This document shows, in pieces, positions 1 to 49,883 of a stretch of 51,251 nt of DNA. Position 1 is the stretch's first letter; every line of letters starts with the position of its first letter. The position numbers were made by a program, and so were the translations under genes. Source of the DNA: a virus (lineage: Duplodnaviria; Heunggongvirae; Uroviricota; Caudoviricetes); IMG/VR virus record IMGVR_UViG_2870495154_000004, positions 1-51,251 of that record, one strand, 5' to 3'. The notes beneath the pieces are model-generated. The model was not told where the DNA came from. It worked only from the letters and a program-made list of their open reading frames with translations, and ran no database searches.

Positions 1-249
1 TCATCTGATCTGTATCCAGCAGAGAAGGTCACTTAACAACCATCCGCAAGATTTCTTTCCGATAGACTTACGTGGTGGAAATGTTCCCTCCCGTTCAAGT
101 TTCCACGCTTGTGTACGAGAAATTGACGTGATCTCATATCGTTCCTTTTCACGTACCAGTCTGTCGCATTCAATCCCATAAGCTTTCAAAATGACCAGAC
201 GCTGTTCATCTGTTAATGGAAGCCACATACTACCCTCCTGATATATCAA
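1..249 (-). CDS. AlpA-like small DNA-binding regulator (phage/island transcriptional regulator family)
   Basis: 82-aa ORF; the C-terminal GWLLSDLLCWI segment resembles the AlpA/Xis-type HTH family; lies outside the prophage in AT-rich flank. Confidence 0.45.
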   Translation of the reverse strand: MIYQEGSMWLPLTDEQRLVILKAYGIECDRLVREKERYEITSISRTQAWKLEREGTFPPRKSIGKKSCGWLLSDLLCWIQIR

Positions 250-918
250 TACTTTTTATTTCCGGCATGAGCATGAAATGACTAAGTTTCCCGGATAAAC
301 AATGAGTGAAAGTCACTATCATTCATCCAGTCAACACCTTACAAATAAAATGTAATACTATGATTTTTATAGGTCAAAATACTGAATTGAAATGTCAAAA
401 TGGCTTTTAATGGAAAAAATAAAGACATATAGAACCAAATAAAAACAATCCGCGACCAATAAAAACAAAAATTAATATTAAAAATCCATTATGACGATTT
501 TTGTTGACTAAAATTAGGTTGGGATATATAAATAAATCCATGTAAAATTCAAACAAAGCATGGAGGAGTCGCAGGAAGGTGAAATATTTCCATCTAATTT
601 GTGATAATCATCACAAAAATAAGCTACAACAAGCGGAGGAAAAGACAATCTGTTGCTGAACAGACAGAAGCAGGCTACGAATGATCGGAAAATGAAGCAA
701 ATACGCTTATACAGAAGACGCAGAGGTAACTGACGGAGACAATCACAATCAGGAGAAAATTATCGTAAATAATGTATAAAATCTCAGGATATAAACAAAT
801 GTACACAAGCTATCCACGTAATCAGCGGCTGGCTCAGGATTAACGTTTCATTTCAGTGGACAAGATCGATTCTGTCTGACAGCGGACCAATATGTAGCAA
901 GCAGAAACTTCTGACATC

Positions 919-2550
919 ATGGTAACTCGGACAATGCAACAAAAGTATCAGTATGATCGTGTTTTATCCGGCGAACTCCACCCATTCCCTGGCATATACG
1001 AGGCGGTTTCCGAACAAATCCTTTTGCTCATTTTTAAAGCACGTCAACTATATCAGGATCCAGAATATCGCCCCTGGTTTGAAGAACAGCACAGAGTACT
1101 CTCTGCATTACGTGCCAATACAGAGCTCCTGAGAATCTTTAGAGAACAAAGAAGCGCTGAAGAACCAAAGCTTACTATTGAAGAGTCTACCTCCCCCCAA
1201 CCCACTCCTTCTGCTCTTACAGATGCGCTTAATGTGATGTGCCATTTATACAATGGTTTTGATGAAGGAAATATCAGTCTGAAAACTTGGGGGGCGATGC
1301 AAGAGGTACAGACAACATCAACCTTTATCAGCCCAGGAACGAGAACCTGGAAAACACCTGAACTGGCAAAGTTTGTAGGAGATGATTTATTTAATATTCT
1401 GACTGAATGTAAGGCCTGGAGTTCACCAATTCCAGCAGAAACCCGACAGGGGTATTGCCATCAGGATCTGTCTGTTGCGCACTCCTGCACCTCAGAGTTG
1501 CTGGCACACCTGAAGCAGTATCATGAAATAGATGAATCAACAATACTTGCCATAACAATTGGTCTGGCGGTTAACGAATTCTACCAGAATAAGCAAAATA
1601 TTCCAGAATGGCTTTCCTGTTTTGAGAATAAGAACAAATGGCCCTGGGACTGCAGGAAGTCAGATACTGAAGATGTGCACAGACTGAGAGAACGACTATC
1701 GATAATCGGATGTACAGAATTCGTAAAAAATATGTTTTCAGTCGCCAGTCAGCGTGAAATACAGACAATGTACAATATTTATGTCCATATTTATGCAGCT
1801 GAAATCTGTGGTTGGGTAAAAACAAGTATGGCGTATTTTAAACCAACAGATTTCATCCAGTACACATGGAAATTCGCAACAGTTACTCCGGATAAAGATG
1901 AAAAAACCGAGAATACGACCGCATGGGAAAGGGATTATTGTCAGATAACCATACAACGAGATGAACTCCTTAGATTGATTCGCACTAATACTCTGCAGGA
2001 TGCCGCAATTCATCTTTCAGGCTGCCTGCAATATGCATATCTGGAGTCAGTAAAGCATGATATTGACTATCCAGGAATAGCCCCTAATGCTGAAGAAAAG
2101 AAAATGAAACACACAGATTCTATTGAATTTTCTGGAATTCGGAATAACATCATAAATGCAGTAAAACGGCTAGAATCATTTGAAAAATGGTATGAAACTA
2201 ATAAAGTTTTGTTGGTAAGTAATAAAAAAATACGAACAGAGAAGATTGACGTTGTTGTACGACTTGCAGGACTGAAAGCCTATGATTTGCAGGAAGGGGT
2301 TCCGGAAGGTCTGAAATGGAAAGTTAAAGATGGCATAAATGAACGCATCAAAACCGATACCAGTTTATGCCTGCCTCAGGATATCAGTGATACATCGCTA
2401 AACCGTTATCGTCACGCTGTGACGCGCATTGTCAACAACGAAATCGACACATTACTGATGGAACAGAAGAAAAAAAATAAAAGATTCCCCTACAGCAAAG
2501 ATCGACATGCGATCCAACCTTTATGGAGCAAATGCTTGATCGAGCAGTAG
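919..2550 (+). CDS. hypothetical protein, 543 aa, no recognised domain
   Basis: long uninterrupted ORF preceded by about 670 bp of very AT-rich leader; no motif recognised by eye. Confidence 0.5.
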   Translation: MVTRTMQQKYQYDRVLSGELHPFPGIYEAVSEQILLLIFKARQLYQDPEYRPWFEEQHRVLSALRANTELLRIFREQRSAEEPKLTIEESTSPQPTPSALTDALNVMCHLYNGFDEGNISLKTWGAMQEVQTTSTFISPGTRTWKTPELAKFVGDDLFNILTECKAWSSPIPAETRQGYCHQDLSVAHSCTSELLAHLKQYHEIDESTILAITIGLAVNEFYQNKQNIPEWLSCFENKNKWPWDCRKSDTEDVHRLRERLSIIGCTEFVKNMFSVASQREIQTMYNIYVHIYAAEICGWVKTSMAYFKPTDFIQYTWKFATVTPDKDEKTENTTAWERDYCQITIQRDELLRLIRTNTLQDAAIHLSGCLQYAYLESVKHDIDYPGIAPNAEEKKMKHTDSIEFSGIRNNIINAVKRLESFEKWYETNKVLLVSNKKIRTEKIDVVVRLAGLKAYDLQEGVPEGLKWKVKDGINERIKTDTSLCLPQDISDTSLNRYRHAVTRIVNNEIDTLLMEQKKKNKRFPYSKDRHAIQPLWSKCLIEQ

Positions 2551-2642
2551 AGAACTGAGGGGATAACCGTTCTGTTATCCCCTGTTTATTCTGCCAACTC
2601 TCAGGTCTGTCAGAGTTCCAAGAACACGATGCGGCTGGCAAA

Positions 2643-3158
2643 TTATGCGGCTTTTCCATTAACAGATTCGGCCACAAGAACAACACCGTGTTTATTTCGA
2701 TCAGGATGTTCACTCCAGATTTCTGATACAGGAATACTTTCCCCGTCATAGCAGATCCGATCGCCATCAAACGGATAATACCGTGCGGAATCAGTATCTA
2801 AAATAAACACTTTCAGATTCGTTGAACGACGCGCTATATGCTACCAGAGGGCTTTACCTCCTTCATATTGCTCGTTATCACTTAATAGTATAACGCCCGC
2901 TTTTGTGGCTATCGTTTCATAAACAAACGTCGCAAGGCCAACATCACGTACAGCGCCATCGACAACAATCCCTTCAATCTGAGCAACGTCCTGTTCTTCC
3001 CAGAATTTCCGGACAAACACCCCTTCAAGCTGTGAACGACGCTGAAGCTCCAGAGTGGCAACAACCTTATGGCGAATATCACCATCAATAACAGAAGGTG
3101 CAGCTTCGATTACCGCAGCGAACGGAGTCTTTGGATCCCAGATGATCTGGTAAAGCAC
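2643..3158 (-). pseudogene. ORF interrupted by a single in-frame amber codon (105 aa + TAG + 66 aa in the same frame)
   Basis: 105-aa ORF ends at TAG (2841-2843); the same frame stays open for 66 more codons to a TAA at 2643-2645. Confidence 0.35.
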
Positions 3159-3531
3159 ACCCTGAATAGTTACTCCATCCAGTATCGAAAAAGACGAGCT
3201 ACAGTAGCAGGGGAGTAAGACATTGGAATGACAGCCATTTTATGGCCTAAAATTTGAAAACATTAGTATCAATACTGACCTCATCAGTCTGAGCATATAT
3301 TGATAAAGTTTTTATGTTTACACTCAATAAATACCTTGCCAAACAACTAATAGCGATGTCTACATTGCCATTCGACATGCTTACAATTTTTGTCAACAAG
3401 AAAGTCAATTTATATCAACGATAAGAAGTAAACACGAGGACACCAAAACCAAATGTACACACTTTTGTGCTTTGTGTCCCCTGTGTGTACCCAAATGACA
3501 AACTGCAAGAAAATCTAGGCACACACTTATC

Positions 3532-3594
3532 TAACTTATTGATTTAAATGGTGCCGATAATAGGAGTCGAACCTACGACCTTCGCATTACGAAT
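3532..3594. repeat. att core copy distal to int (63 bp; carries the 3' 46 nt of tRNA-Thr plus 17 bp)
   Basis: exact 63-bp direct repeat of 49791-49853; flanking sequence diverges on both sides. Confidence 0.85.
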
Positions 3595-4133
3595 TATAAG
3601 AATCCGCTTCTAATTCAAAGCATTACCCCATCAACACTGCGCTCACACGTCCCACCACATCAAAACATGTAAAGCCTTGCAAGCCATTGCGAGGCCTTAT
3701 ATGTCTCAGTTTTGTCCCACCTTGTATTACGACTTGCATAGCCAATGAAGATAAACGTAACGACAAACGGCACTGCAGTCTTCTTTTCTTTCACGACTTC
3801 CCCACACCCAGCATGCATACCTTTCTGCCACAACTGTAGTGAATGTCTGTTATGAGCGAAATATAGTCATTGACTACCGAATCTCTTTTCGCCGAAACGC
3901 GCTACTAAATAGCTAGCGCGTGCGCAATGGCACGTTAGTGCTGATATACGTCAGGAGTAAAGCGTGATGTAAATTTTTCTGATGAATTTTCAGAATGTAT
4001 CATCCGGGCTTACCGATGGCAGTGTCGTTTCGGCTCAAAAAGGTGTGAAATATAAATAGCAGCGCTGATGTTTAAATAATTATCAAGTCTGGCATGATGA
4101 GAGAGAAACTTAACTTATGCGAGGATCGCAAGT

Positions 4134-5504
4134 ATGCTGAATCTTATCGTTGTCGGAACCCCCAAATACTACACTTTTTTTTCTGAACCCAGTGGCAATG
4201 ACTCTTTCCCTGTGTCGCGACTCTTCGAATCCACGCCAGAGTCTCTTAGAAGCAGATTGCTTCCCCTGACTGAAAAAACCTATCATTTTCTTCAGGAACT
4301 GCCCGTTGTATTTATGTCCGAGCCGGAAATTGAATTCGATGAAGATAATGAAAAAATAGGTTATTTCAGCCACATCCGCTTAGGAAAAATCAGCAAGATA
4401 AGTACGTCCGTGTATAACAGAGAAAAAGTTTTAGCGTTTGATTATGAGATTACCAGTGATATCGGCTACAAGCCCTTAACCAGCGATAAAGAGTACGTAA
4501 GTGAGCTGGAGCTGGGCAGTTTCGGACTAAACAGAACGTTCTGGGCGGTCAAAGAGATTTCCGTAAATGAGATTCTGCGTGTTTTAGGCCTTGAAGGCTA
4601 TTCTAATGTTGAGCCCGCAGCAGCGAGTGCGGAAGCACCGGAGAATAATGAAGAACTAGAGATCATTGCGAATATCAATCAGTACTTGCAGGTGATACTC
4701 GATCATACACAGGGAAACGATGAAGAGGTATTTTACCGCGGTCACTCGGACATCAACTACCAACTGGAACCCTCACTGTTCCGCAAGGATACTCAGGGTA
4801 ACTATCGCTACCGCCATCACGAATCGGACATGATAACAGAGCTGCTGACCGTGCAGCCCGCCGAGTTCAAAGACGATCGGTATATGCTAGATAAACTCGT
4901 GCGCATGCAACACTATGGCCTACCCACACGCCTGCTTGATGTATCAACAAACCCCTTGATCGCACTATATTTTGCCTGCTCTAAAATCAAGCACGATGAA
5001 AATAATCATGAAATTGACGGGAACGTCATTATTCTGACGACGCCCAAAAGTGAAATTAAGTTTTTCGACTCGGATACCGTAAGTTGCATAGCCAATCTTT
5101 CCCGTCTTCCCTCTCGTTTCAAAAGCAGCCTGAAAACTAATCTCACCATTCCGGCGTTTAACGAATCTGAAGAGTGCGGACAACTACTACACCTGATCCG
5201 CGATGAAAAGTCCTATTTCAAAAGCATCATCGATCCGGTCCACCTAAGTAAAATTGTTGTGGTCAAAGGTCGGCTCAGTAACGCACGTATTTCGTCCCAA
5301 TCAGGCGCTTTCCTGCTCTTTGGTGAAAACGTAGACCTACCGGAAACGGGACTCAGTACGCTGAACATCAAAAAGCTTGTTATTAGAAACAAAGAGCATC
5401 TGATGCAGCAACTGAGCCGCCTTGGCATTAACGAAAGCACGGTGTACCCCGGCATTGAGAAGGCTGCTACGGAAATTGCAAAACTATACGATGGACGAAT
5501 CTGA
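4134..5504 (+). CDS. FRG-domain protein with an uncharacterised N-terminal domain
   Basis: 456-aa ORF; C-terminal half carries the FRG signature (VFYRGHSD...YQLEPSLFR...QHYGLPTRLLDVSTNPLIALYFAC); SD-like GAGGA upstream. Confidence 0.6.
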   Translation: MLNLIVVGTPKYYTFFSEPSGNDSFPVSRLFESTPESLRSRLLPLTEKTYHFLQELPVVFMSEPEIEFDEDNEKIGYFSHIRLGKISKISTSVYNREKVLAFDYEITSDIGYKPLTSDKEYVSELELGSFGLNRTFWAVKEISVNEILRVLGLEGYSNVEPAAASAEAPENNEELEIIANINQYLQVILDHTQGNDEEVFYRGHSDINYQLEPSLFRKDTQGNYRYRHHESDMITELLTVQPAEFKDDRYMLDKLVRMQHYGLPTRLLDVSTNPLIALYFACSKIKHDENNHEIDGNVIILTTPKSEIKFFDSDTVSCIANLSRLPSRFKSSLKTNLTIPAFNESEECGQLLHLIRDEKSYFKSIIDPVHLSKIVVVKGRLSNARISSQSGAFLLFGENVDLPETGLSTLNIKKLVIRNKEHLMQQLSRLGINESTVYPGIEKAATEIAKLYDGRI

Positions 5505-5645
5505 TAGCGCTTTAGTCGCACGGCACGCCTGTGTGCCAGCGTGGGCCCATAGCCGCTTTAATCGCCGTGCAGAATGCAGTTTTCAGGTAACTTCAGAGAA
5601 ACAAGTGATCTCATTTCGTTGTATTTATTAGCTGCGGAGTCATTA

Positions 5646-6698
5646 ATGGAAAGAATCAAGAGGAATCCCGAACGATTTGAAGCCTTTGAGCTTTTTTCCT
5701 CGTTGGGCCAGATCTATAATTACGATATTAAAAACCCCGAGCACCAGGATGACTTTATACAAAAGGTCACCACGTCATTAATCGCTTCCCATCAGAATCC
5801 AATTCTGCTGAACGGGAAAAGAATAGAAAACCTATTTAAACACGTTTGCGCCGCACTGAACCACTGCCAGTTTCTTAAACAGGAAGACGCCGGAGACTTG
5901 ATGTCAGCCGATCCCGATCTGGTGGCACCTGACTATCGCATTATACTGAAGGATCGCCGTCAGATCTTTGTGGAAGTAAAAAACTTTAACGCGGATGACG
6001 TGGCTGACGATTATCGCCTGAAGAAATCGTACAGTGATAAGGTTGAAAAGTACGGTGAGCTCCATGGTATTCCAGTTTATTATGCCATCTACATCAGGAT
6101 GCTGCGCCGGTGGGCGCTGGTTGCACGCTCCTCAATGAAGGAGCTAGAGCGTGAACATACCTTGACGCAGGCCTCGGCGCTCGCAAAAAGTGAGATGTAC
6201 CTGCTGGGCGACCTATCGATAGCAACAGAACCCGATCTGGTTTTTGAGCTTATCCCCGACCGGACCAAAGAAGTTTCAGTTAGTCCCGAAGGCATCGCCC
6301 ATTTTACAATTGGCGAGATTAAAATTTACTGCAATGACAGACAAGTAACGGATAAATTTGAAATGAACACGGCGTTTCATCTGATGCGCTACGGAGAGTG
6401 GCTCTGCCCCGGATCGGAGGCAATATTCACTGATGGTCAGCTTGAGAGCATCCGATACACATTTTCCCCGGAAGACGACGAAAATTACAAAAGACAGGGT
6501 TTCGACTTTATAGGTACGCTGAGTTCGCTGGTCACGTCGGCCTTTAACGAGCAGACTGTACACGACAGCCAGATCAGGTCAGTTGACACCCGGCAGAATG
6601 TCAGACTTTTCACGGTAACCATCCCTGATGATTACAAAGGGGGAGGCCTGCCTCTGTGGCGTTTCTCAATGCGGCCAAACTATGAATTTACCGATTAA
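5646..6698 (+). CDS. PD-(D/E)xK nuclease-fold protein (restriction-endonuclease-like) with an unknown C-terminal domain
   Basis: ORF with GGAG 6 nt upstream of ATG 5646 (track ORF opens at 5574); motif order E...PD...(14 aa)...EVK in APDYRIILKDRRQIFVEVK. Confidence 0.5.
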   Translation: MERIKRNPERFEAFELFSSLGQIYNYDIKNPEHQDDFIQKVTTSLIASHQNPILLNGKRIENLFKHVCAALNHCQFLKQEDAGDLMSADPDLVAPDYRIILKDRRQIFVEVKNFNADDVADDYRLKKSYSDKVEKYGELHGIPVYYAIYIRMLRRWALVARSSMKELEREHTLTQASALAKSEMYLLGDLSIATEPDLVFELIPDRTKEVSVSPEGIAHFTIGEIKIYCNDRQVTDKFEMNTAFHLMRYGEWLCPGSEAIFTDGQLESIRYTFSPEDDENYKRQGFDFIGTLSSLVTSAFNEQTVHDSQIRSVDTRQNVRLFTVTIPDDYKGGGLPLWRFSMRPNYEFTD

Positions 6699-7174
6699 GA
6701 GTAATAGTGAGACATTTAATCGGGATAAATCGCTCGATAATTCGTTGCTACTTCAACAACTTATAAATGAGAAGACCCAGCCTAATAACCTCACAATCAA
6801 CTTCATTGCGGATCCCCAAAGATAGACGGGCATAGGCGGCTTTTTATCACCTAAGCGTCAGCGCAACATAAATGATCGGGTCAATGGAATGACCTGTTCC
6901 CCGTTAAACAACACAGATGGTTGTTAGCCACTTCCGCACTTGGCATGACTTGTCCCACCGTTTGATACGTTACTATCTTAGTAATGTCCGCTTCTGGCAC
7001 GAAGCTATCGTAGGTTAGGCCCAAGGACAGCTTTAAGCGAGGAGCGGACGCTGAATTCGAATTCATCGTAAAAATTTTTATGGCCAAGTAGCTCTATAAG
7101 GCCTTTCATTAAAGCTATCTTTGTCGCAAAGCTTATGCAAAAAGTTACTTTATCTTTAAATCTAATAAGATAAC

Positions 7175-7990
7175 ATGATTGACGAAACCCCAAAATCAAC
7201 TTTACTTAAGCAAAAACGAGGCATGCAATTGAAAAAGATTAGGAAAATCAATAAAAAAATTATTGATGAATTGCTATCTCTTCGCGAATCAAGAGGAGCT
7301 ATAGAAGACTTCTCAATGTCTTTCCTACTAAATTTTGCAGAAAATTGTCGACTTATGCATTCACTTATTTCAACGAAAGATAAGAAAATAGATATTTATA
7401 AAACAGCATATCGACAATATTTTGTATTTCTAATCAGTTGCTGGGAAACATATTTTAGAGACGTTTTTGTTTTCGTGCATTCAGTTGATGAATCTAGAAT
7501 TACAACACTACTATCTAAAATGAGAACAGAAACATCTATCAATATAAACACTGAGATAAATCTATCAGAGTTATTGAGTAAAAGCTTTAACTTTCAAAAC
7601 TTAAACGACCTTGAAGAAGCATATAATGGCATGTGGGGTGAGAGTTTTTTAAACTACATATGTACAACTAATATATCTCCTTGCGGTCTGAGTGGCCAAA
7701 TTTCCCAAAGCTTATCGATAGAAAATATATTTCCAGACTGGAGAGCCCTCATAGAGGAAGCATTTTACATTAGGCACAAAGTGGTTCATGATGCAAACTT
7801 CAGACCTAAAGTCAACATTGAATTAATCAGTAAGGTAGAGGCTTTGTTTTTAATAATCCCACAATTTGCAACGCATATCATATCAGAAAGATTCAACTTA
7901 AAAAAAATCGTCATTTCAGATGGTAAAAATAACCATACCTATATTTTCAATATCAGTGATATATTATCTGATGATTGGGTTGTTAGTTGA
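7175..7990 (+). CDS. AT-rich hypothetical protein with HEPN-like Rx4H motif (candidate RNase / abortive-infection protein)
   Basis: 271-aa ORF in markedly AT-rich DNA; C-terminal motif YIRHKVVHD fits the HEPN Rx4-6H signature. Confidence 0.4.
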   Translation: MIDETPKSTLLKQKRGMQLKKIRKINKKIIDELLSLRESRGAIEDFSMSFLLNFAENCRLMHSLISTKDKKIDIYKTAYRQYFVFLISCWETYFRDVFVFVHSVDESRITTLLSKMRTETSININTEINLSELLSKSFNFQNLNDLEEAYNGMWGESFLNYICTTNISPCGLSGQISQSLSIENIFPDWRALIEEAFYIRHKVVHDANFRPKVNIELISKVEALFLIIPQFATHIISERFNLKKIVISDGKNNHTYIFNISDILSDDWVVS

Positions 7991-8229
7991 TGATGGGATT
8001 GTAAGTATATTAACACAAAAAACAAAGAATCTAATGAAGTCCGCTTCTGGCACATAGCAGCCATAGAGACAGTGGCGTAAAGTCATGGAGGATCGGTGGG
8101 AGGAGGTGCAAATCCTCTCATGCAAAAATATGTAAAATCGGTAGCAACTGGAAATCATTCAATACTCGCACTATCGGAAGTTCACCAGCCAACCGCAGCA
8201 CGTTCCTACATACGACGTGTCTGCGGTTT

Positions 8230-8584
8230 TCTTTTTCGCTTAGATTGTGTCTGGTTCTTTCGGCCACTCAATATCAGGTGCAGTTGATGTATCAACACGG
8301 TTCAGCAACACCCGATACTTTTTCCAGGCTTCCACCACCAGCACGACAAGATGCCGCATACAGTGACCCAGTCAGTCCAGTTTCCAGACAACCAGTGCGT
8401 CACCTTTTTGAAGGCGCTTTAAAGCGCGTTTTAATCCTGGTCGGTCTGTCTTTGTCCCGCTTAATTTATCTTCAAATATTTGTTCACATCCTGCACAAAC
8501 AAGAGCGTTTCGTTGCAGGTCTGTATTCTGGTCATTTGTTGATACCCTTACATAGCCAATCAGCACACTGAATCTCCCGTCCAA
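8230..8584 (-). pseudogene. pin: Pin/Gin-family serine DNA invertase remnant (frameshifted and truncated)
   Basis: first 70 aa ([23 protein letters not shown]...LVVWKLD) match Pin-type invertase N-terminus; premature TGA; invertase-like residues continue in another frame; C-terminal HTH missing. Confidence 0.65.
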
Positions 8585-9811: not shown

Positions 9812-12800
9812 TCAAAAGAAAAAGTTATTGTTAAGCATTCCTGCAAGACCTTCGCTGGATGATATTGTGGAAAAACCTGATCCACCATTCGCAAGCGCAA
9901 GACCACCTGTGTTACTAAGGTGTGTCCGGTCTATTGATTTTTCAGACCATACACCGCCATTATTGTAAATAATGTTTCCAACTGTTCCGCCACCTATCCT
10001 GATGTAGTAATCCATAGAACTACCACCAGTTGGTAATACTGTGTCACTCCATGTACCTTTGTATACCAGGTCGTTTGTTGTGAACCCTGTAAATGACCCG
10101 CCATTGAAAAATGACCAGGGTAGAACGCCATAAGTAACAGCAACTTGTTTTTCGGTCATGCCCGGGAAAGTAGGATCAATTGCGTCAGTAGCAGCAGAAA
10201 GCATATTTTGGTATACGTTAAAGAAACGTCCTGGAAATATTCTTCTGTACCATTCTCCAAGCTCGTAAAGAACACCCGTTTTAGCGTACTGGTCCTCATG
10301 CTGCTGTACAACAATTCTTGAACCGTTCCATGTCTCTGTCCTTTGCCCCATAATTGTCAGGAATATATATCTGGCATCCCTGGCCCCAACCAATGCAGCC
10401 ATTTCAATAGAATCCTGCCTGATTTGTGCAGCATTTAAATCAGTTGTCGGCTGGTTATTTTGTCCGTGCCAAAAGCAGATGACCTGTCCGGCATAATTAT
10501 CCCCGTTAACAAGAATTTCCTGCTTTAACATACCGAGGACCTGATCGGAAGTAGAGCCGCCATAGGAGCGGACCTCCCCGGGCACGCTCACCTCTGAAAG
10601 GATTTGGTTGCCGGAATTTCCACTGCCGAAAAGAGAATCCCCGATCAAGAGAAGCTTACTCCCAAGAGATTTACGGATTGTCGTCATCACCTGAGCTTTC
10701 AGCCTTACACCGACAGGGCCAGAGCTCTTATCAGAACGCCGAATTTCCCACTCGTCAGAGTTTTGACTACAACGTAGGCTGATAGAGCTGCCTGCAGCAA
10801 CAGTAACGGATGCCTGACCTGCTATGCGAATCCACGCGGAGCCATCCCAGAGAGCGTAATCTCCGGCAGAAAAACTATTTCCTGAAATGGTACCCGCTGC
10901 GGATGCCTGATAAACCGAATTACGCAGTGGACTAGCAGGATAACCAGAGGCAGGAGCAAACTCCCCTGCGTAAACCAGTGCATCACTGGCTGATGACAGC
11001 AATACCCATCGTGGAGTCATGGATGCGCCACCGGCAGTTTGCAGTCCTGTATAGAGCAATTTGTCCCCTGCCTGCAGCGCCATGCCGTTGAACGTCCCAG
11101 CAGCAGTCACCTCATACCAGCTGTCCGCGATTTTAATCACACCGGTGCCCGGCCCACGCTGGATGACGAACTCTGTACCATTCCAGACAAGATTGTCGCC
11201 GCAGTACAGGCTCTGACTGCCCCAGGTGCCCGGTAGTGTCTCGGAGAGGTTTCCGTTTGTGTTATAGGCCTCGTAGCTATAGTAATCACCGACAGCAAAC
11301 GTCCCTGTCGGCGTGGTAACTGCGGTGGTGAGAAACCGCCCTTTTTTCGTCAGCGATGGCACCGCGCCTGGCGTAAACACGCCAGCCCGCGCTTTCCCGG
11401 TGAACAGCAGCCCGCTGGCCTGCCGGTATTCAATCGCGGTGCCGGTCGCATTAATTCCGAATGCGGCCTTACACACATGCGACGGCAGCGGAGACCAGGC
11501 AGAGCCGTCGCGTGCATTGGTCCGCACCGCGATTTCGGAGAGCGTTGAGCGCGTTGCATCCGGGCGGGCATCTACAACATCCTGTGGGTGTGCAATAATT
11601 TTATTCTGTACATCTTCAGTCAGCGTTGAGAAGCCGACGATGTCATCACCCAACAGAAGACGAGAAATAAATACATCGCCATCTGTCGTCACATAGCTGG
11701 ACATCCGCTTTGTCACCGGATCATAGTCGACGCTGACATAACCAGTATCAGGGTCAAGGTCCAGTGGAATGACCTGCTGAACTTCTGTGGAAAGTTGTGA
11801 GTTCCCGACGCTATTCTCAGGGACCTGTAGCAAGGGAATAAAAACCTGTCCATCCGTTGTGGTATATGAAGACATACGTCTGGTTACCGGATCGTAGTTG
11901 ATTTCTGAAAACCCAGTATCAGGGTCCAGTTCCTGAGATAAAATACTTTGAACATCCAGCGAAAGTTTTTCTGAGCTTACTGAGCCATTTTGAATATTAT
12001 TTCCAGTGACTGCATTTTCAGATAATTGCAGCAAAGGGATAAACACACGACCATCACGCATAGTGAACTTAGACATGCGCATGGAAACTGGGTCATATTC
12101 AACATCAACAATATCGAGACCATCATCCAGCTCAGTTGAGATTAATCCCCTTGATGCAAGATCATCAATATACCCCTTGGAAATCATTACCCGGCCAGTG
12201 GCAGATAATATCCCTGAATTATTGATAACTTCTATTGCAAGATATTTGTAATCGGAGTCTCGGTAATAAGCTGTTGACCCAACAGGAATATTGCCAGCAT
12301 CTGCGTCTGCCTGTGCCGCCGCCAGCGTCGGAAACTCGCGGATTGTCCCAGTTATAGCCGCTGTGCCTGGCTCAGAAGCCTGCAACACAGCTACGCCATC
12401 CTGGTTCTCGTAGGTTTTGAATGCCGCCGTCGCTTCCGGACCTTCCGCTACGCGGAACGACTGTCCGTTGGTCGTAGCAGCAAGGCCTGCAATTGTACCG
12501 TCCGGATCGCTCGGCGTTTTATAGAACGTGAACTTATTCAGCGCATATTCAGAAGCATTGCTCGCGAACTCTTCGGCCTGAGAGGCAGAAATAGCAGCCT
12601 CTGCCGTGTTCTGTGCCACCGCGGACGCGTTACGCGCCACTTCTTCCACCATCAGCTCAAAACGGCGCAGTGCCTCCGGACGGGCATCATCCTCCGTCAT
12701 GGCACCGAGAAAATCATTCAGCGTACCGGGTCGGGAATCTTCATACACGGTGATAATTCCGGCATGTGACGGCGGGAATCCCTCCACCAACAGAATAACG

Positions 12801-12982
12801 CTGTACTGACCGTACTCAACGTCCATACTGTAACGCCCGGCTTCATCCGGATTTTCTGAGGCCACCGTGTTCGCCACCACCGTGGTGCTGTTACGTTTTG
12901 CTTTCAGCTGGATTGTGCAGTTCTGTACCGGTTTACCTGCACCGTCTTTCAGTACACCTGAAATCTTTACTGCCATATTCAC
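9812..12982 (-). CDS. stf: side tail fibre protein, lambda Stf-like N-terminus, three internal tandem repeats, C-terminal GDSL/SGNH-like hydrolase motif
   Basis: first ~120 aa match lambda Stf; three ~35-aa repeats (DYDPVTxRMSSYxTTDGxVFIPLLQ); motif LLLIGDSLFGSGNS near residue 780. Confidence 0.8.
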   Translation of the reverse strand: MNMAVKISGVLKDGAGKPVQNCTIQLKAKRNSTTVVANTVASENPDEAGRYSMDVEYGQYSVILLVEGFPPSHAGIITVYEDSRPGTLNDFLGAMTEDDARPEALRRFELMVEEVARNASAVAQNTAEAAISASQAEEFASNASEYALNKFTFYKTPSDPDGTIAGLAATTNGQSFRVAEGPEATAAFKTYENQDGVAVLQASEPGTAAITGTIREFPTLAAAQADADAGNIPVGSTAYYRDSDYKYLAIEVINNSGILSATGRVMISKGYIDDLASRGLISTELDDGLDIVDVEYDPVSMRMSKFTMRDGRVFIPLLQLSENAVTGNNIQNGSVSSEKLSLDVQSILSQELDPDTGFSEINYDPVTRRMSSYTTTDGQVFIPLLQVPENSVGNSQLSTEVQQVIPLDLDPDTGYVSVDYDPVTKRMSSYVTTDGDVFISRLLLGDDIVGFSTLTEDVQNKIIAHPQDVVDARPDATRSTLSEIAVRTNARDGSAWSPLPSHVCKAAFGINATGTAIEYRQASGLLFTGKARAGVFTPGAVPSLTKKGRFLTTAVTTPTGTFAVGDYYSYEAYNTNGNLSETLPGTWGSQSLYCGDNLVWNGTEFVIQRGPGTGVIKIADSWYEVTAAGTFNGMALQAGDKLLYTGLQTAGGASMTPRWVLLSSASDALVYAGEFAPASGYPASPLRNSVYQASAAGTISGNSFSAGDYALWDGSAWIRIAGQASVTVAAGSSISLRCSQNSDEWEIRRSDKSSGPVGVRLKAQVMTTIRKSLGSKLLLIGDSLFGSGNSGNQILSEVSVPGEVRSYGGSTSDQVLGMLKQEILVNGDNYAGQVICFWHGQNNQPTTDLNAAQIRQDSIEMAALVGARDARYIFLTIMGQRTETWNGSRIVVQQHEDQYAKTGVLYELGEWYRRIFPGRFFNVYQNMLSAATDAIDPTFPGMTEKQVAVTYGVLPWSFFNGGSFTGFTTNDLVYKGTWSDTVLPTGGSSMDYYIRIGGGTVGNIIYNNGGVWSEKSIDRTHLSNTGGLALANGGSGFSTISSSEGLAGMLNNNFFF

Positions 12983-48403: not shown

Positions 48404-48753
48404 TGGAGCCATACAGCCTCACACTCGATGAGGCCTGTCATTTTCTCAAGATATCCAGACCGACTGCCATTAACTGGATACGCACAGGGCGTCTTCAGGC
48501 AACACGCAAAGATCCCACTAAGAATAAATCTCCTTACCTCACAACACGACAAGCCTGCATTGCGGCTCTTCAGTCTCCGCTGCATACTGTCCAGGTGAGC
48601 GCGGGTGATGGCATAACAGAGGAAAGAAAATGTCACTCTTCCGCAGAGGTGAAATATGGTACGCCAGTTTCACATTGCCGAACGGTAAAAGATTTAAACA
48701 GTCTCTTGGAACAAAGGACAAAAGGCAGGCGACAGAACTCCATGACAAGCTAA
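48403..48753 (+). CDS. xis: excisionase (P22 Xis-like HTH)
   Basis: [33 protein letters not shown] directly upstream of and overlapping int. Confidence 0.7.
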
Positions 48754-49793
48754 AGGCTGAAGCATGGCGGGTCAGCAAACTTGGTGAAATACCTGATATA
48801 ACGTTCGAGGAAGCGTGTATCAGGTGGCTTGAAGAGAAAGCACATAAAAAATCACTGGACGATGACAAAAGCCGGATCGGATTCTGGCTTCAACATTTCG
48901 CAGGAATGCAACTAAGAGACATTACTGAATCAAAAATTTATTCAGCAATGCAGAAAATGACGAACCGGCGTCATGAGGAAAACTGGAAACTCAGGACAGA
49001 AGCATGCAGAAAAAAAGGGAAACCTGTTCCAGAATACACGCCAAAACCAGCGTCCGTTGCAACGAAGGCTACGCATCTTTCATTTATAAAAGCCCTACTA
49101 AGAGCCGCAGAGCGTGAATGGAAAATGCTGGATAAGGCACCAATTATTAAAGTGCCTCAACCAAAGAATAAACGGATCCGCTGGCTGGAGCCCCATGAAG
49201 CACAAAGGCTGATTGATGAATGTCCGGAGCCATTAAAGTCTGTTGTTGAATTTGCACTGGCAACAGGCTTAAGACGCTCGAACATCATCAACCTTGAATG
49301 GCAACAAATAGACATGCAGCGCCGGGTGGCATGGATAAACCCGGAAGAGAGTAAATCAAACCGCGCAATTGGCGTTGCGCTGAATGATACTGCATGTCGC
49401 GTTTTGAAAAAACAAATCGGGAATCATCACCGTTGGGTATTTGTGTACAAGGAAAGCTGTACCAAACCAGACGGAACGAAAGCGCCAACAGTAAGGAAGA
49501 TGCGGTATGACGCAAACACAGCCTGGAAAGCGGCGCTGAGACGGGCTGGTATTGATGATTTCAGATTTCACGACTTGAGACACACCTGGGCAAGTTGGCT
49601 GGTTCAAGCCGGAGTCCCGTTGTCAGTGTTACAGGAAATGGGAGGCTGGGAGTCTATCGAAATGGTTCGTCGATATGCTCACCTTGCACCTAATCACCTT
49701 ACCGAACACGCACGGCAAATAGACTCGATCCTGAACCCATCGGTCCCAAATTCGTCCCAGTCAAAAAATAAGGAAGGTACTAATGATGTGTAA
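48630..49793 (+). CDS. int: tyrosine integrase, P22 Int-like, thrW-specific
   Basis: 387 aa; arm-binding N-terminus and catalytic HDLRHTWAS...VRRYAH; stop codon is the first 3 nt of the att core. Confidence 0.9.
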
Positions 49794-49853
49794 CTTATTG
49801 ATTTAAATGGTGCCGATAATAGGAGTCGAACCTACGACCTTCGCATTACGAAT
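49791..49853. repeat. att core copy adjacent to int, overlapping the 3' 46 nt of thrW
   Basis: exact 63-bp direct repeat of 3532-3594. Confidence 0.85.
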
Positions 49854-49883
49854 GCGCTGCTCTACCAACTGAGCTATATCGGC
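49808..49883 (-). tRNA. thrW: tRNA-Thr (anticodon CGU)
   Basis: 76-nt cloverleaf ending CCA; anticodon loop TTCGTAA; next to proA. Confidence 0.9.

What the first reader, a model, noticed from the sequence alone, without database searches (positions are those of the whole stretch)
4134..6698. FRG-domain gene followed by a PD-(D/E)xK nuclease-like gene in the prophage accessory end: candidate uncharacterised two-gene defence module
Two same-strand genes sit between the tail-fibre region and the distal att copy, the lambda b-region position where lambdoid prophages carry exchangeable cargo. The first (456 aa) has a clear FRG signature (FYRGHSD, LEPSLFR, QHYGLPTRLLDVSTNPLIALYFAC) fused to an unrecognised N-terminal domain. 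The second (about 350 aa) has the E...PD...EVK order of a restriction-endonuclease-fold active site plus an unknown C-terminal domain. Neither belongs to the phage core, and I do not recognise this pairing as a named defence system. A 142-bp gap with a short GGCAC/GTGCC inverted repeat separates them, so co-transcription is not certain.
Basis: partly seen in the sequence, partly recalled or inferred. Interest (0 to 1): 0.8.

Follow-up and report, generated by a model that had tools for sequence, protein, structure and literature searches.

The report
Prophage cargo: FRG gene plus nuclease
Two cargo genes at the end of an E. coli prophage, one a catalogued but untested anti-phage candidate and the other a previously unnamed DNA-cutting enzyme, travel together between phages, plasmids and chromosomes, but each also occurs on its own, so they are more likely two neighbouring defence genes than one two-part machine.

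Summary
Genes 4134-5504 (456 aa) and 5646-6698 (350 aa) lie on the + strand between a partial thrW att copy (3550-3594) and the tail-fibre end of a lambdoid E. coli prophage.

**Gene 1** is a Pfam FRG protein. It matches PADLOC's untested single-gene candidate PDC-S15. Its N-terminal domain folds like EVE/YTH modified-base readers, but that support is weak.

**Evidence for a pair:**
- The two genes moved as one block (window 4065-6710) into a Serratia island, a plasmid-like contig and a Pectobacterium element.
- They are also carried by phage PhiR11_1.

**Evidence against an obligate pair:**
- FRG orthologues at 77-88% identity stand alone, next to Hachiman or CBASS.
- Gene-2 homologues at 49% identity or less never sit beside FRG.

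In other clades gene 2 pairs with SIR2, STAND NTPase, SMEK or GIY-YIG proteins.

Verdict: this is a co-transferred cassette of two separable candidate defence genes. Obligate cooperation is not shown. No function has been tested. Interest is moderate.

The parts
3550..3594 (-). Partial copy of the 3' end of tRNA-Thr(CGU) thrW. This is the distal att copy and the prophage boundary.
   Evidence: It matches 49809-49853 exactly over 45 bp, with 0 matches expected by chance. The full tRNA lies at 49808-49883. Homology with the ECONIH1 cassette starts at 3532.
4065..4133 (+). Conserved leader of the FRG gene with a promoter-like element: TTTAAA (4071-4076), a 16-nt spacer, then TGn-CATGAT (4090-4098, extended -10 type).
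   Evidence: This stretch is conserved in five contexts, paired or FRG-only, while sequence further upstream is unrelated. All homology blocks start at 4042-4088. It scores 8/12 to consensus, below the scanner's 9/12 threshold, so one search does not list it. The promoter function is inferred.
4134..5504 (+). Gene 1, a 456-aa FRG-domain protein. Residues 1-~170 form a beta-rich N-terminal domain. Residues ~171-452 form the FRG/PDC-S15 core.
5505..5645 (+). The 141-bp spacer. It contains a 5-bp inverted repeat, GGCAC 5522-5526 / GTGCC 5533-5537, and a GGAG ribosome-binding site about 9 nt before the ATG.
   Evidence: Sequence was read directly. No terminator-like site lies on the + strand. The fold z-score is +0.91. 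Position-equivalent hairpins occur in two other loci (a 9-bp stem in L014) but not in Serratia.
5646..6698 (+). Gene 2, 350 aa. It has an N-terminal helical bundle (residues 8-71), a PD-(D/E)xK nuclease core (residues ~52-173) and a C-terminal alpha/beta domain (residues ~175-350) with no recognisable relative.
7175..7990 (+). Neighbouring third cargo gene, 271 aa, GC about 32%. It is a HEPN-like candidate RNase and is not part of the conserved pair.
   Evidence: Pfam HEPN_RiboL-PSP scores 25.9 bits against a cut-off of 28.4. An R-x4-H motif, IRHKVVHD, is visible in the translation. The gene accompanies the pair only in E. coli and phage PhiR11_1, and is absent from the Serratia, plasmid-like and Pectobacterium loci.
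8372..8584 (-). Remnant of a pin-type serine invertase, marking the inner edge of the cargo region.
   Evidence: Pfam Resolvase N-terminal domain matches at 9e-20 over only 70 aa. An intact pinE occupies this position in ECONIH1 and ECCHD184.
49808..49883 (-). Intact tRNA-Thr(CGU), the proximal att, next to the integrase at 48630-49793.
   Evidence: ARAGORN identifies the tRNA. Pfam Phage_integrase matches at 5.8e-48.

Best explanation
The region 3595-8370 is the exchangeable cargo end of a thrW-integrated lambdoid prophage. It carries three candidate anti-phage genes. The first two form an old, co-transferred cassette (about 4065-6710), probably transcribed from one promoter upstream of the FRG gene. 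They are two separable effectors rather than an interdependent machine.

Gene 1 (inferred mechanism): a sensor-effector fusion. An N-terminal PUA-like (EVE/YTH-like) barrel would recognise a nucleic-acid cue, possibly a modified base of an invading phage. It would then release the FRG domain. The FRG domain is an ADP-ribosyltransferase-superfamily fold predicted to consume NAD+ or to ADP-ribosylate a target, which would abort the infection.

Gene 2 (inferred mechanism): a Mg2+-dependent DNA endonuclease with an Hjc/RecU-like PD-(D/E)xK core. Its novel C-terminal domain would set specificity or regulation, so that it attacks phage DNA, perhaps branched replication or recombination intermediates.

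Shown: the folds, motifs, linkage, mobility and purifying selection. Inferred: promoter use, every biochemical activity and the defence phenotype.
For: Identity of the parts:
- FRG matches Pfam and PDC-S15.
- Gene 2 has the Hjc-like fold with invariant catalytic residues.

Cargo and defence context:
- The att copy and integrase bound the prophage.
- The identical cassette lies next to pinE of a myovirus-type prophage and in phage PhiR11_1.
- Only 28 of 5,426 complete E. coli genomes carry it.
- Neighbours elsewhere are a TerB / BrxC-like ATPase / DEAD helicase trio, Hachiman and CBASS in a P2-type prophage.

Linkage:
- A single 2,659-bp block matches Serratia at 75.6% identity over 4065-6710.
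- The pair is also on a ParA-bearing plasmid-like contig.
- Pectobacterium keeps the last ~40 FRG codons, cut by an IS element, upstream of an intact gene 2.
- No terminator lies between the genes.
- dS exceeds 1 and dN/dS is 0.05-0.13 for both genes.

Separability:
- FRG-only orthologues (K. pneumoniae, E. coli LR-03, ECCHD184) are interleaved with paired ones in the tree. For example, paired Serratia versus FRG-only LR-03 is 88% identical, closer than the two paired loci are to each other at 80%.
- FRG-only genes are equally constrained, and their homology stops at 5505/5506.
- Same-architecture FRG proteins number at least 2,750.
- Gene-2 relatives at 49% identity or less sit without FRG on 43 plasmids, on prophage ends and in metagenomes.
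Against: - No experiment exists for either gene. PDC-S15 is one of 145 explicitly untested candidates, and no paper mentions these proteins.
- The adjacency has survived saturating synonymous divergence and at least five transfers with tight block boundaries. Selection on the pair would also produce this pattern.
- A distant gene-2 clade is translationally coupled (4-bp overlap) to a SIR2-like protein in at least four contigs. A Burkholderia homologue lies 38 bp from a 461-aa RES protein. Recurrent NAD+-enzyme partners hint at functional coupling.
- The promoter reading is sub-threshold.
Confidence: 0.5

Rival explanations
1. The two genes are a true cooperative two-gene system. The FRG protein and the Hjc-like nuclease would work together: for example, NAD+-derived chemistry (an ADP-ribose signal or ADP-ribosylated DNA) would license or direct the nuclease, or the nuclease would sense phage DNA and trigger the NAD+-consuming partner. 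FRG-only loci would then be reduced or re-partnered versions.
For: - Every locus examined in the gene-2 clade at 65% identity or more is or was paired with FRG. These are two E. coli prophage backbones, PhiR11_1, Serratia, the plasmid-like contig, and Pectobacterium with an FRG stub.
- In all of them the genes share a strand, are 98-141 bp apart and have no terminator between them.
- The homology block boundaries coincide with the two-gene unit.
- In a distant clade, the gene-2 homologue overlaps by 4 bp a SIR2-like gene (Pfam SIR2_2 3.2e-11; PADLOC Aga_SIR2 7e-20), and the contigs have different flanks.
- An RES (ART-superfamily) protein lies next to the Burkholderia homologue.
- Other clades sit 39 bp downstream of nSTAND3 NTPases or beside SMEK proteins. 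The family behaves like a partnered effector.
Against: - FRG orthologues nested within the paired clade are intact, abundant and under equal purifying selection without gene 2. One cluster has 192 member sequences, and 18 E. coli genomes carry an FRG-only version.
- PADLOC models FRG as a single-gene candidate.
- Many gene-2 homologues have no conserved partner.
- The FRG partner is upstream and not overlapping, whereas the SIR2 partner is downstream and overlapping. These are independent arrangements.
- NAD+ enzymes are common in defence islands, so three such neighbours among about 18 contexts could be chance.
Confidence: 0.3
2. The genes are not anti-phage defence. They would serve the mobile element itself: for example an Hjc-like resolvase for recombination or DNA processing, an ART-type enzyme acting on host targets for lysogenic conversion, addiction or anti-defence, or a toxin-antitoxin-like stabilisation pair.
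For: - The structural best match of gene 2 is a Holliday-junction resolvase.
- Both genes are carried by phages, plasmids and integrative elements.
- No phenotype is known.
Against: - The genes lie in the cargo end, not in the recombination or replication module.
- Gene 2 is 350 aa with two extra domains, unlike Hjc or RecU at about 130-200 aa, and has no sequence similarity to them.
- Neighbours are overwhelmingly defence genes.
- Each gene occurs without the other, which argues against a toxin-antitoxin pair.
- The FRG family was recovered by its embedding in BREX, DISARM or type I RM loci.
Confidence: 0.12

Closest known systems
PADLOC phage defence candidate PDC-S15 (FRG-domain single-gene candidates; Payne et al., bioRxiv 10.1101/2024.01.29.577857)
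   Same: Gene 1 matches 14 PDC-S15 profiles. The best is 8.4e-99 over residues 171-452. Like that entry, its relatives occur as single genes in defence loci.
   Different: PDC-S15 is untested. Its profiles do not cover the 170-residue N-terminal domain. The entry says nothing about a downstream nuclease partner.
ART-superfamily NAD+-using toxins and effectors (RES of RES-Xre; pertussis/cholera-type toxins; FRG placed in this superfamily by Iyer et al., PMC9503650)
   Different: The structural scores are low. No antitoxin-like partner is present. No catalytic triad was mapped here and no activity is known.
Modification-dependent (type IV-like) restriction enzymes built from a PUA-like reader plus an effector: EVE-HNH VcaM4I, YTH-like McrB N-domain, PD-T4-3
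   Different: The effector here is an ART-like FRG domain, not a nuclease. The aligned region was not reported by the tool, so its assignment to the N-domain is inferred from domain size and beta content.
Archaeal Hjc and bacterial RecU Holliday-junction resolvases (PD-(D/E)xK)
   Different: Gene 2 has an extra three-helix N-terminal bundle and a ~175-residue C-terminal domain. It has no sequence similarity to any PDB chain. It sits in defence-island contexts rather than with repair genes.
SIR2-containing defence operons (short pAgo-associated SIR2, SIR2-HerA, Thoeris ThsA, DSR)
   Same: A distant gene-2 clade is followed, with a 4-bp overlap, by a SIR2-like protein matching PADLOC Aga_SIR2 and SIR2 profiles. 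This is an NAD+-enzyme plus partner layout, like FRG plus gene 2.
   Different: There is no Argonaute, HerA or ThsB partner. The partner is the Hjc-like protein. That operon is not in this window.
Prophage and satellite cargo hotspots for defence genes (P2 and lambdoid accessory loci)
   Same: The cassette lies between att and the tail-fibre/pin end. A 58%-identical FRG gene sits beside CBASS between the replication gene and ogr/portal of a P2-type Yersinia prophage.
   Different: This describes only the location. It does not establish any mechanism.

Membership tests
Pfam FRG domain (PF08867) | A match to the family profile above the curated gathering score | tested here: met
   79.2 bits against a cut-off of 25, E 4.7e-22, residues 198-289 covering profile positions 2-93 of 94. 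The Y-R-G-H motif has R202, G203 and H204 invariant in 41 homologues.
PADLOC PDC-S15 | A match to PDC-S15 protein profiles | tested here: met
   Fourteen profiles match. The best are 8.4e-99 and 1.7e-98 over residues 171-452.
PADLOC PDC-S15 | Acts as an anti-phage system | not testable with these tools
   The source paper lists PDCs as 145 untested candidates. No paper in the library reports a test.
ADP-ribosyltransferase (ART) superfamily | ART split beta-sheet fold | tested here: inconclusive
ADP-ribosyltransferase (ART) superfamily | NAD+ binding and catalysis | not testable with these tools
   This needs an enzyme assay.
PUA-like modified-base readers (EVE / YTH / ASCH) | PUA-like beta-barrel fold | tested here: inconclusive
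PUA-like modified-base readers (EVE / YTH / ASCH) | Sequence-profile membership or a conserved binding pocket | tested here: not met
   No Pfam family recurs among 18 N-domain sequences at E <= 10. A profile search finds no PDB chain. The pocket residues were not mapped.
PD-(D/E)xK nuclease superfamily | Alpha-beta-beta-beta-alpha-beta core fold | tested here: met
PD-(D/E)xK nuclease superfamily | Catalytic E ... (P)D ... (D/E)-x-K residues conserved | tested here: met
   D96, E110 and K112 are invariant. E61 and P95 are at least 90% conserved across 35 and across 20 more diverse homologues. They fall on helix 52-71, strand 97-101 and strand 106-114 of the model.
Hjc / RecU Holliday-junction resolvase families | Compact single-domain protein (~120-200 aa) with detectable family sequence similarity | tested here: not met
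   Gene 2 is 350 aa with additional N- and C-terminal domains. A profile of 35 homologues finds no PDB sequence at E <= 10, and there is no Pfam hit.
Hjc / RecU Holliday-junction resolvase families | Cleaves four-way junctions | not testable with these tools
   This needs a nuclease assay on synthetic junctions.
Obligate two-gene defence system | The partners co-occur throughout both families | tested here: not met
   FRG occurs without gene 2 at 77-88% identity. Gene 2 occurs without FRG in every context at 49% identity or less. Co-occurrence holds only within the gene-2 clade at 65% identity or more.
Obligate two-gene defence system | Listed as a system in a defence database | tested here: not met
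   Gene 2 has no significant PADLOC hit; the best is E 0.013 to PDC-S05 over 27 residues. DefenseFinder was not available.
Type II toxin-antitoxin pair | The toxin is never maintained without its antitoxin | tested here: not met
   Intact FRG occurs alone. Intact gene 2 occurs beside an IS-truncated FRG.
HEPN (neighbouring gene 7175-7990) | Profile match above the cut-off and an R-x4-6-H motif | tested here: inconclusive
   HEPN_RiboL-PSP scores 25.9 bits, below the cut-off of 28.4. The motif IRHKVVHD is present in the translation.

The most novel reading that the evidence does not exclude
The unnamed 350-aa Hjc-like family is a general nuclease partner for NAD+-consuming immune enzymes: FRG here, SIR2 in soil bacteria, RES in Burkholderia. 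It may also partner STAND NTPases. On this reading, FRG plus gene 2 is a real two-component system that couples NAD+/ADP-ribose chemistry to DNA cleavage. One possibility is a nuclease licensed by an ADP-ribose-derived signal. Another is a nuclease directed to ADP-ribosylated phage DNA, with the PUA-like domain of the FRG protein reading a phage base modification.
Probability: 0.2. Interest if true: 0.8.

Novelty: new variant of a known kind. Interest (0 to 1): 0.5.

Why it matters
If the genes protect against phage, three things would follow.

- It would be the first functional evidence for the FRG domain. FRG is a widespread ART-like fold with at least 2,750 close relatives of this architecture, predicted but never shown to be an immune NADase.
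- It would name a large, unannotated family of Hjc-like nucleases, about 1,260 clusters at 50% identity, found across Proteobacteria and Actinobacteria on plasmids, prophages and islands.
- The separable-yet-linked pair is a clean natural experiment on whether adjacent defence genes cooperate. FRG-only, nuclease-only and paired versions all exist at about 80% identity.

The predicted reader-plus-ART layout would extend modification-dependent sensing beyond nucleases. The cassette is carried by a sequenced 49-kb phage (PhiR11_1) whose GenBank record names E. coli K-12 MG1655 as host, so experiments should be straightforward.

Tried and rejected
Searches that gave little or nothing:
- The genome-contig scan for gene-2 relatives returned only 2 loci because the peptide patterns were narrow.
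- A word-indexed search with the FRG N-domain alone returned only fragments. Whether that domain is fused to other effectors therefore remains unknown.
- No Pfam or PDB sequence hit was found for the N-domain.
- Literature searches for FRG domain, PF08867, PDC-S15, PhiR11 and the three RefSeq accessions found no functional study. DefensePredictor's main text does not mention FRG.

Ideas rejected:
- The GGCAC/GTGCC repeat as a terminator or regulatory hairpin. It is 5 bp with no T-run, the fold z-score is +0.91, and it is absent in Serratia.
- The third gene (7175-7990) as part of the unit. It is absent from all non-E. coli paired loci and has a different GC content.
- A toxin-antitoxin pair, because each gene is kept without the other.
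- Pectobacterium as an independent 'gene 2 alone' case. It keeps an FRG stub cut by an IS element, so it is a decayed pair.
- A conserved small upstream partner for distant gene-2 homologues. The upstream proteins are unrelated between contexts.
Full report
**What is there.** The window is E. coli and is 100% identical to strain CREC-629. The two ORFs exist as described: 4134-5504 (+, 456 aa) and a second gene whose true start is ATG 5646 (350 aa, stop at 6698). Homologue alignment and RefSeq agree on that start. The spacer is 141 bp. The GGCAC/GTGCC repeat (5522-5526 / 5533-5537) is present but is 5 bp with no T-run. It is not called as a terminator or a repeat, and the spacer folds no better than shuffled sequence.

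Positions 3550-3594 are an exact copy of the 3' part of tRNA-Thr(CGU) at 49809-49853. The intact tRNA lies at 49808-49883, beside an integrase. The lambdoid prophage (J, Lom, side tail fibre) therefore spans about 3550-49883, and the genes lie in its att-proximal cargo end. A third same-strand cargo gene sits at 7175-7990, and a pin-invertase remnant at 8372-8584. Upstream of the att copy begins a different element, a CP4-57-like island with AlpA at 1-249.

**Gene 1.** Pfam FRG matches residues 198-289 (4.7e-22). PADLOC's PDC-S15 profiles match residues 171-452 (8.4e-99), and phrog_4962 matches full length. PDCs are 145 explicitly untested candidates, found by their embedding in BREX, DISARM or type I RM loci (bioRxiv 10.1101/2024.01.29.577857). 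Iyer et al. place FRG in the ADP-ribosyltransferase superfamily and predict it to be an NADase-type antiviral effector (PMC9503650).

It is not an Hjc-family member. It has an extra helical bundle, a ~175-residue C-terminal domain with no detectable relative, and no sequence similarity to any PDB chain. The word-indexed search found only 49 relatives. An exhaustive profile search found 1,261 representatives at 50% identity (568 at E <= 1e-30), and nearly all of the 150 best listed are about 340-365 aa. This is a large, uniform and unnamed family.

**Is it a two-gene module? Evidence for linkage.** The cassette occurs in 28 of 5,426 complete E. coli genomes, and there gene 2 is always with FRG. 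It sits in at least two prophage backbones: this lambdoid one and a myovirus-type prophage next to intact pinE in ECONIH1. It is also in the sequenced phage PhiR11_1.

Serratia carries FRG (456 aa) plus gene 2 (353 aa) in a chromosomal island. The island also holds a TerB / BrxC-like ATPase / DEAD helicase trio, which resembles Shango from my own knowledge. The homology is a single 2,659-bp block covering window 4065-6710. A ParA-bearing plasmid-like contig has the pair as well. The Pectobacterium locus looked like gene 2 alone, but it retains the last ~40 FRG codons cut by an IS element. So every locus examined in the gene-2 clade at 65% identity or more is or was paired. A ~65-bp leader with an extended -10-like element is conserved upstream of FRG in all contexts, and no terminator separates the genes. 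Both genes are under purifying selection (dN/dS 0.05-0.13), with synonymous sites saturated between paired loci.

**Evidence against interdependence.** FRG orthologues at 77-88% identity lack gene 2. In each case homology ends at the FRG stop codon.
- K. pneumoniae and E. coli ECCHD184 / 2017.06.05CC carry FRG beside Hachiman.
- E. coli LR-03 carries it as the last gene of a small integrative element.

These FRG-only lineages are interleaved with paired ones. Paired Serratia and FRG-only LR-03 are 88% identical, closer than the two paired loci (E. coli and Serratia) are to each other at 80%. This implies at least two losses of gene 2, with FRG still constrained. More distant same-architecture FRG genes are single genes beside CBASS in a P2-type Yersinia prophage and in a Morganellaceae island. 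The architecture has at least 2,750 relatives.

Conversely, none of the gene-2 homologues at 49% identity or less has an FRG gene within the 3.5-8 kb of flank examined. These include:
- a Pantoea prophage end, Providencia, and 43 plasmids including MOBH conjugative plasmids;
- Yersinia, Rhizobium, Ensifer, Burkholderia, Bradyrhizobium, Streptomyces and Nocardia plasmids;
- 56 metagenomic loci.

**A complication worth keeping.** Distant gene-2 clades have their own lineage-specific partners.
- A SIR2-like protein lies downstream with a 4-bp overlap in at least four contigs with different flanks.
- nSTAND3 NTPases of ~1,100 aa lie 39 bp upstream in three loci.
- A SMEK or SMEK-STAND protein is adjacent in two loci.
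- A GIY-YIG protein lies upstream on Rhizobium plasmids.
- A 461-aa RES protein is convergent, 38 bp away, in Burkholderia.

Three of about 18 independent contexts therefore place the family next to an NAD+-using enzyme (FRG, SIR2, RES). That is suggestive of coupling, but it is not decisive, because such enzymes are common in defence islands. Most neighbours have no known family.

**Conclusion.** The most likely reading (about 0.5) is a long-lived, co-transcribed and co-transferred cassette of two separable candidate defence effectors, stacked with a third HEPN-like gene in the prophage's cargo slot. A genuinely cooperative NAD+-enzyme-plus-nuclease system remains plausible (about 0.3). A non-defence role for the mobile element is less likely (about 0.12), given the context. 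All biochemical activities and the defence phenotype are inferred. Nothing has been tested experimentally for either protein.

**Novelty and interest.** The FRG half is catalogued already. The nuclease family and the conserved pairing are not. This is a good, tractable candidate among many such candidates, so interest is moderate.

Noticed in passing
window 7175-7990 (+): A 271-aa gene with GC of about 32%, against about 46% for its neighbours. It gives a sub-threshold HEPN_RiboL-PSP match (25.9 bits, cut-off 28.4) and has an R-x4-H motif (IRHKVVHD), so it is a candidate abortive-infection RNase. It accompanies the FRG/nuclease pair only in E. coli and phage PhiR11_1.
   Followed up: partly
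window 8283-8584 (-): A 70-aa N-terminal remnant of a pin-type resolvase lies at 8372-8584. Next to it is a sub-threshold Rfam IS009 match at 8283-8362 (47.5 bits, gathering score 117). An intact pinE occupies this position in related prophages.
   Followed up: partly
window 1-3540: This is the end of a separate CP4-57-like island integrated in tandem at thrW, with AlpA at 1-249 (-). It contains a 543-aa ORF (919-2550) with no hit in Pfam, NCBIfam, PHROGs or PADLOC, and a fragment of phrog_7522 (2841-3158, -) that RefSeq flags as a frameshifted pseudogene. In CREC-629 the island continues upstream with Hhe, a frameshifted reverse-transcriptase-domain pseudogene and a TOTE primase fragment.
   Followed up: partly
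window 9812-12982 (-): The side tail-fibre ORF is intact here (1056 aa, GTG start). It carries a GDSLFGSG motif, typical of GDSL/SGNH esterases, in its C-terminal part. RefSeq annotates only an N-terminal fragment of this gene as a pseudogene in the identical strain.
   Followed up: no
L005 1091-3207; L050 211-2333; L052; contig of P0046: In soil metagenomes, a clade 31-33% identical to gene 2 forms a conserved operon with a SIR2-like protein: a 4-bp overlap, with different flanks on each contig. This is an unnamed candidate two-gene system in its own right.
   Followed up: partly
L081, L087, L089 (57-4532); L038 3962-6959; L034 4909-7062: Other gene-2 relatives sit 39 bp downstream of ~1,100-aa nSTAND3 NTPases, or next to SMEK-domain proteins. 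The family may therefore serve as an effector for STAND-type sensors.
   Followed up: partly
L037 4001-6479 (Burkholderia gladioli plasmid): A gene-2 homologue is convergent with, and 38 bp from, an unusually long (461-aa) RES-domain protein that carries a ~215-residue N-terminal extension. This is a sensor-plus-ART layout reminiscent of the FRG protein.
   Followed up: no
L016, L024, L025 (K. pneumoniae, E. coli): FRG-only orthologues travel with a convergent Hachiman (HamA/HamB) locus. They also lie near an inverted copy of the same thrW fragment (window 3548-3594, 100% identical), which suggests a shared thrW-associated cargo pool across species.
   Followed up: partly
L011 5476-6899 (Serratia, Logan assembly): The FRG gene is split into two ORFs in one Serratia assembly but is intact in two others with otherwise identical loci. 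This is either an assembly error or a recent frameshift.
   Followed up: no
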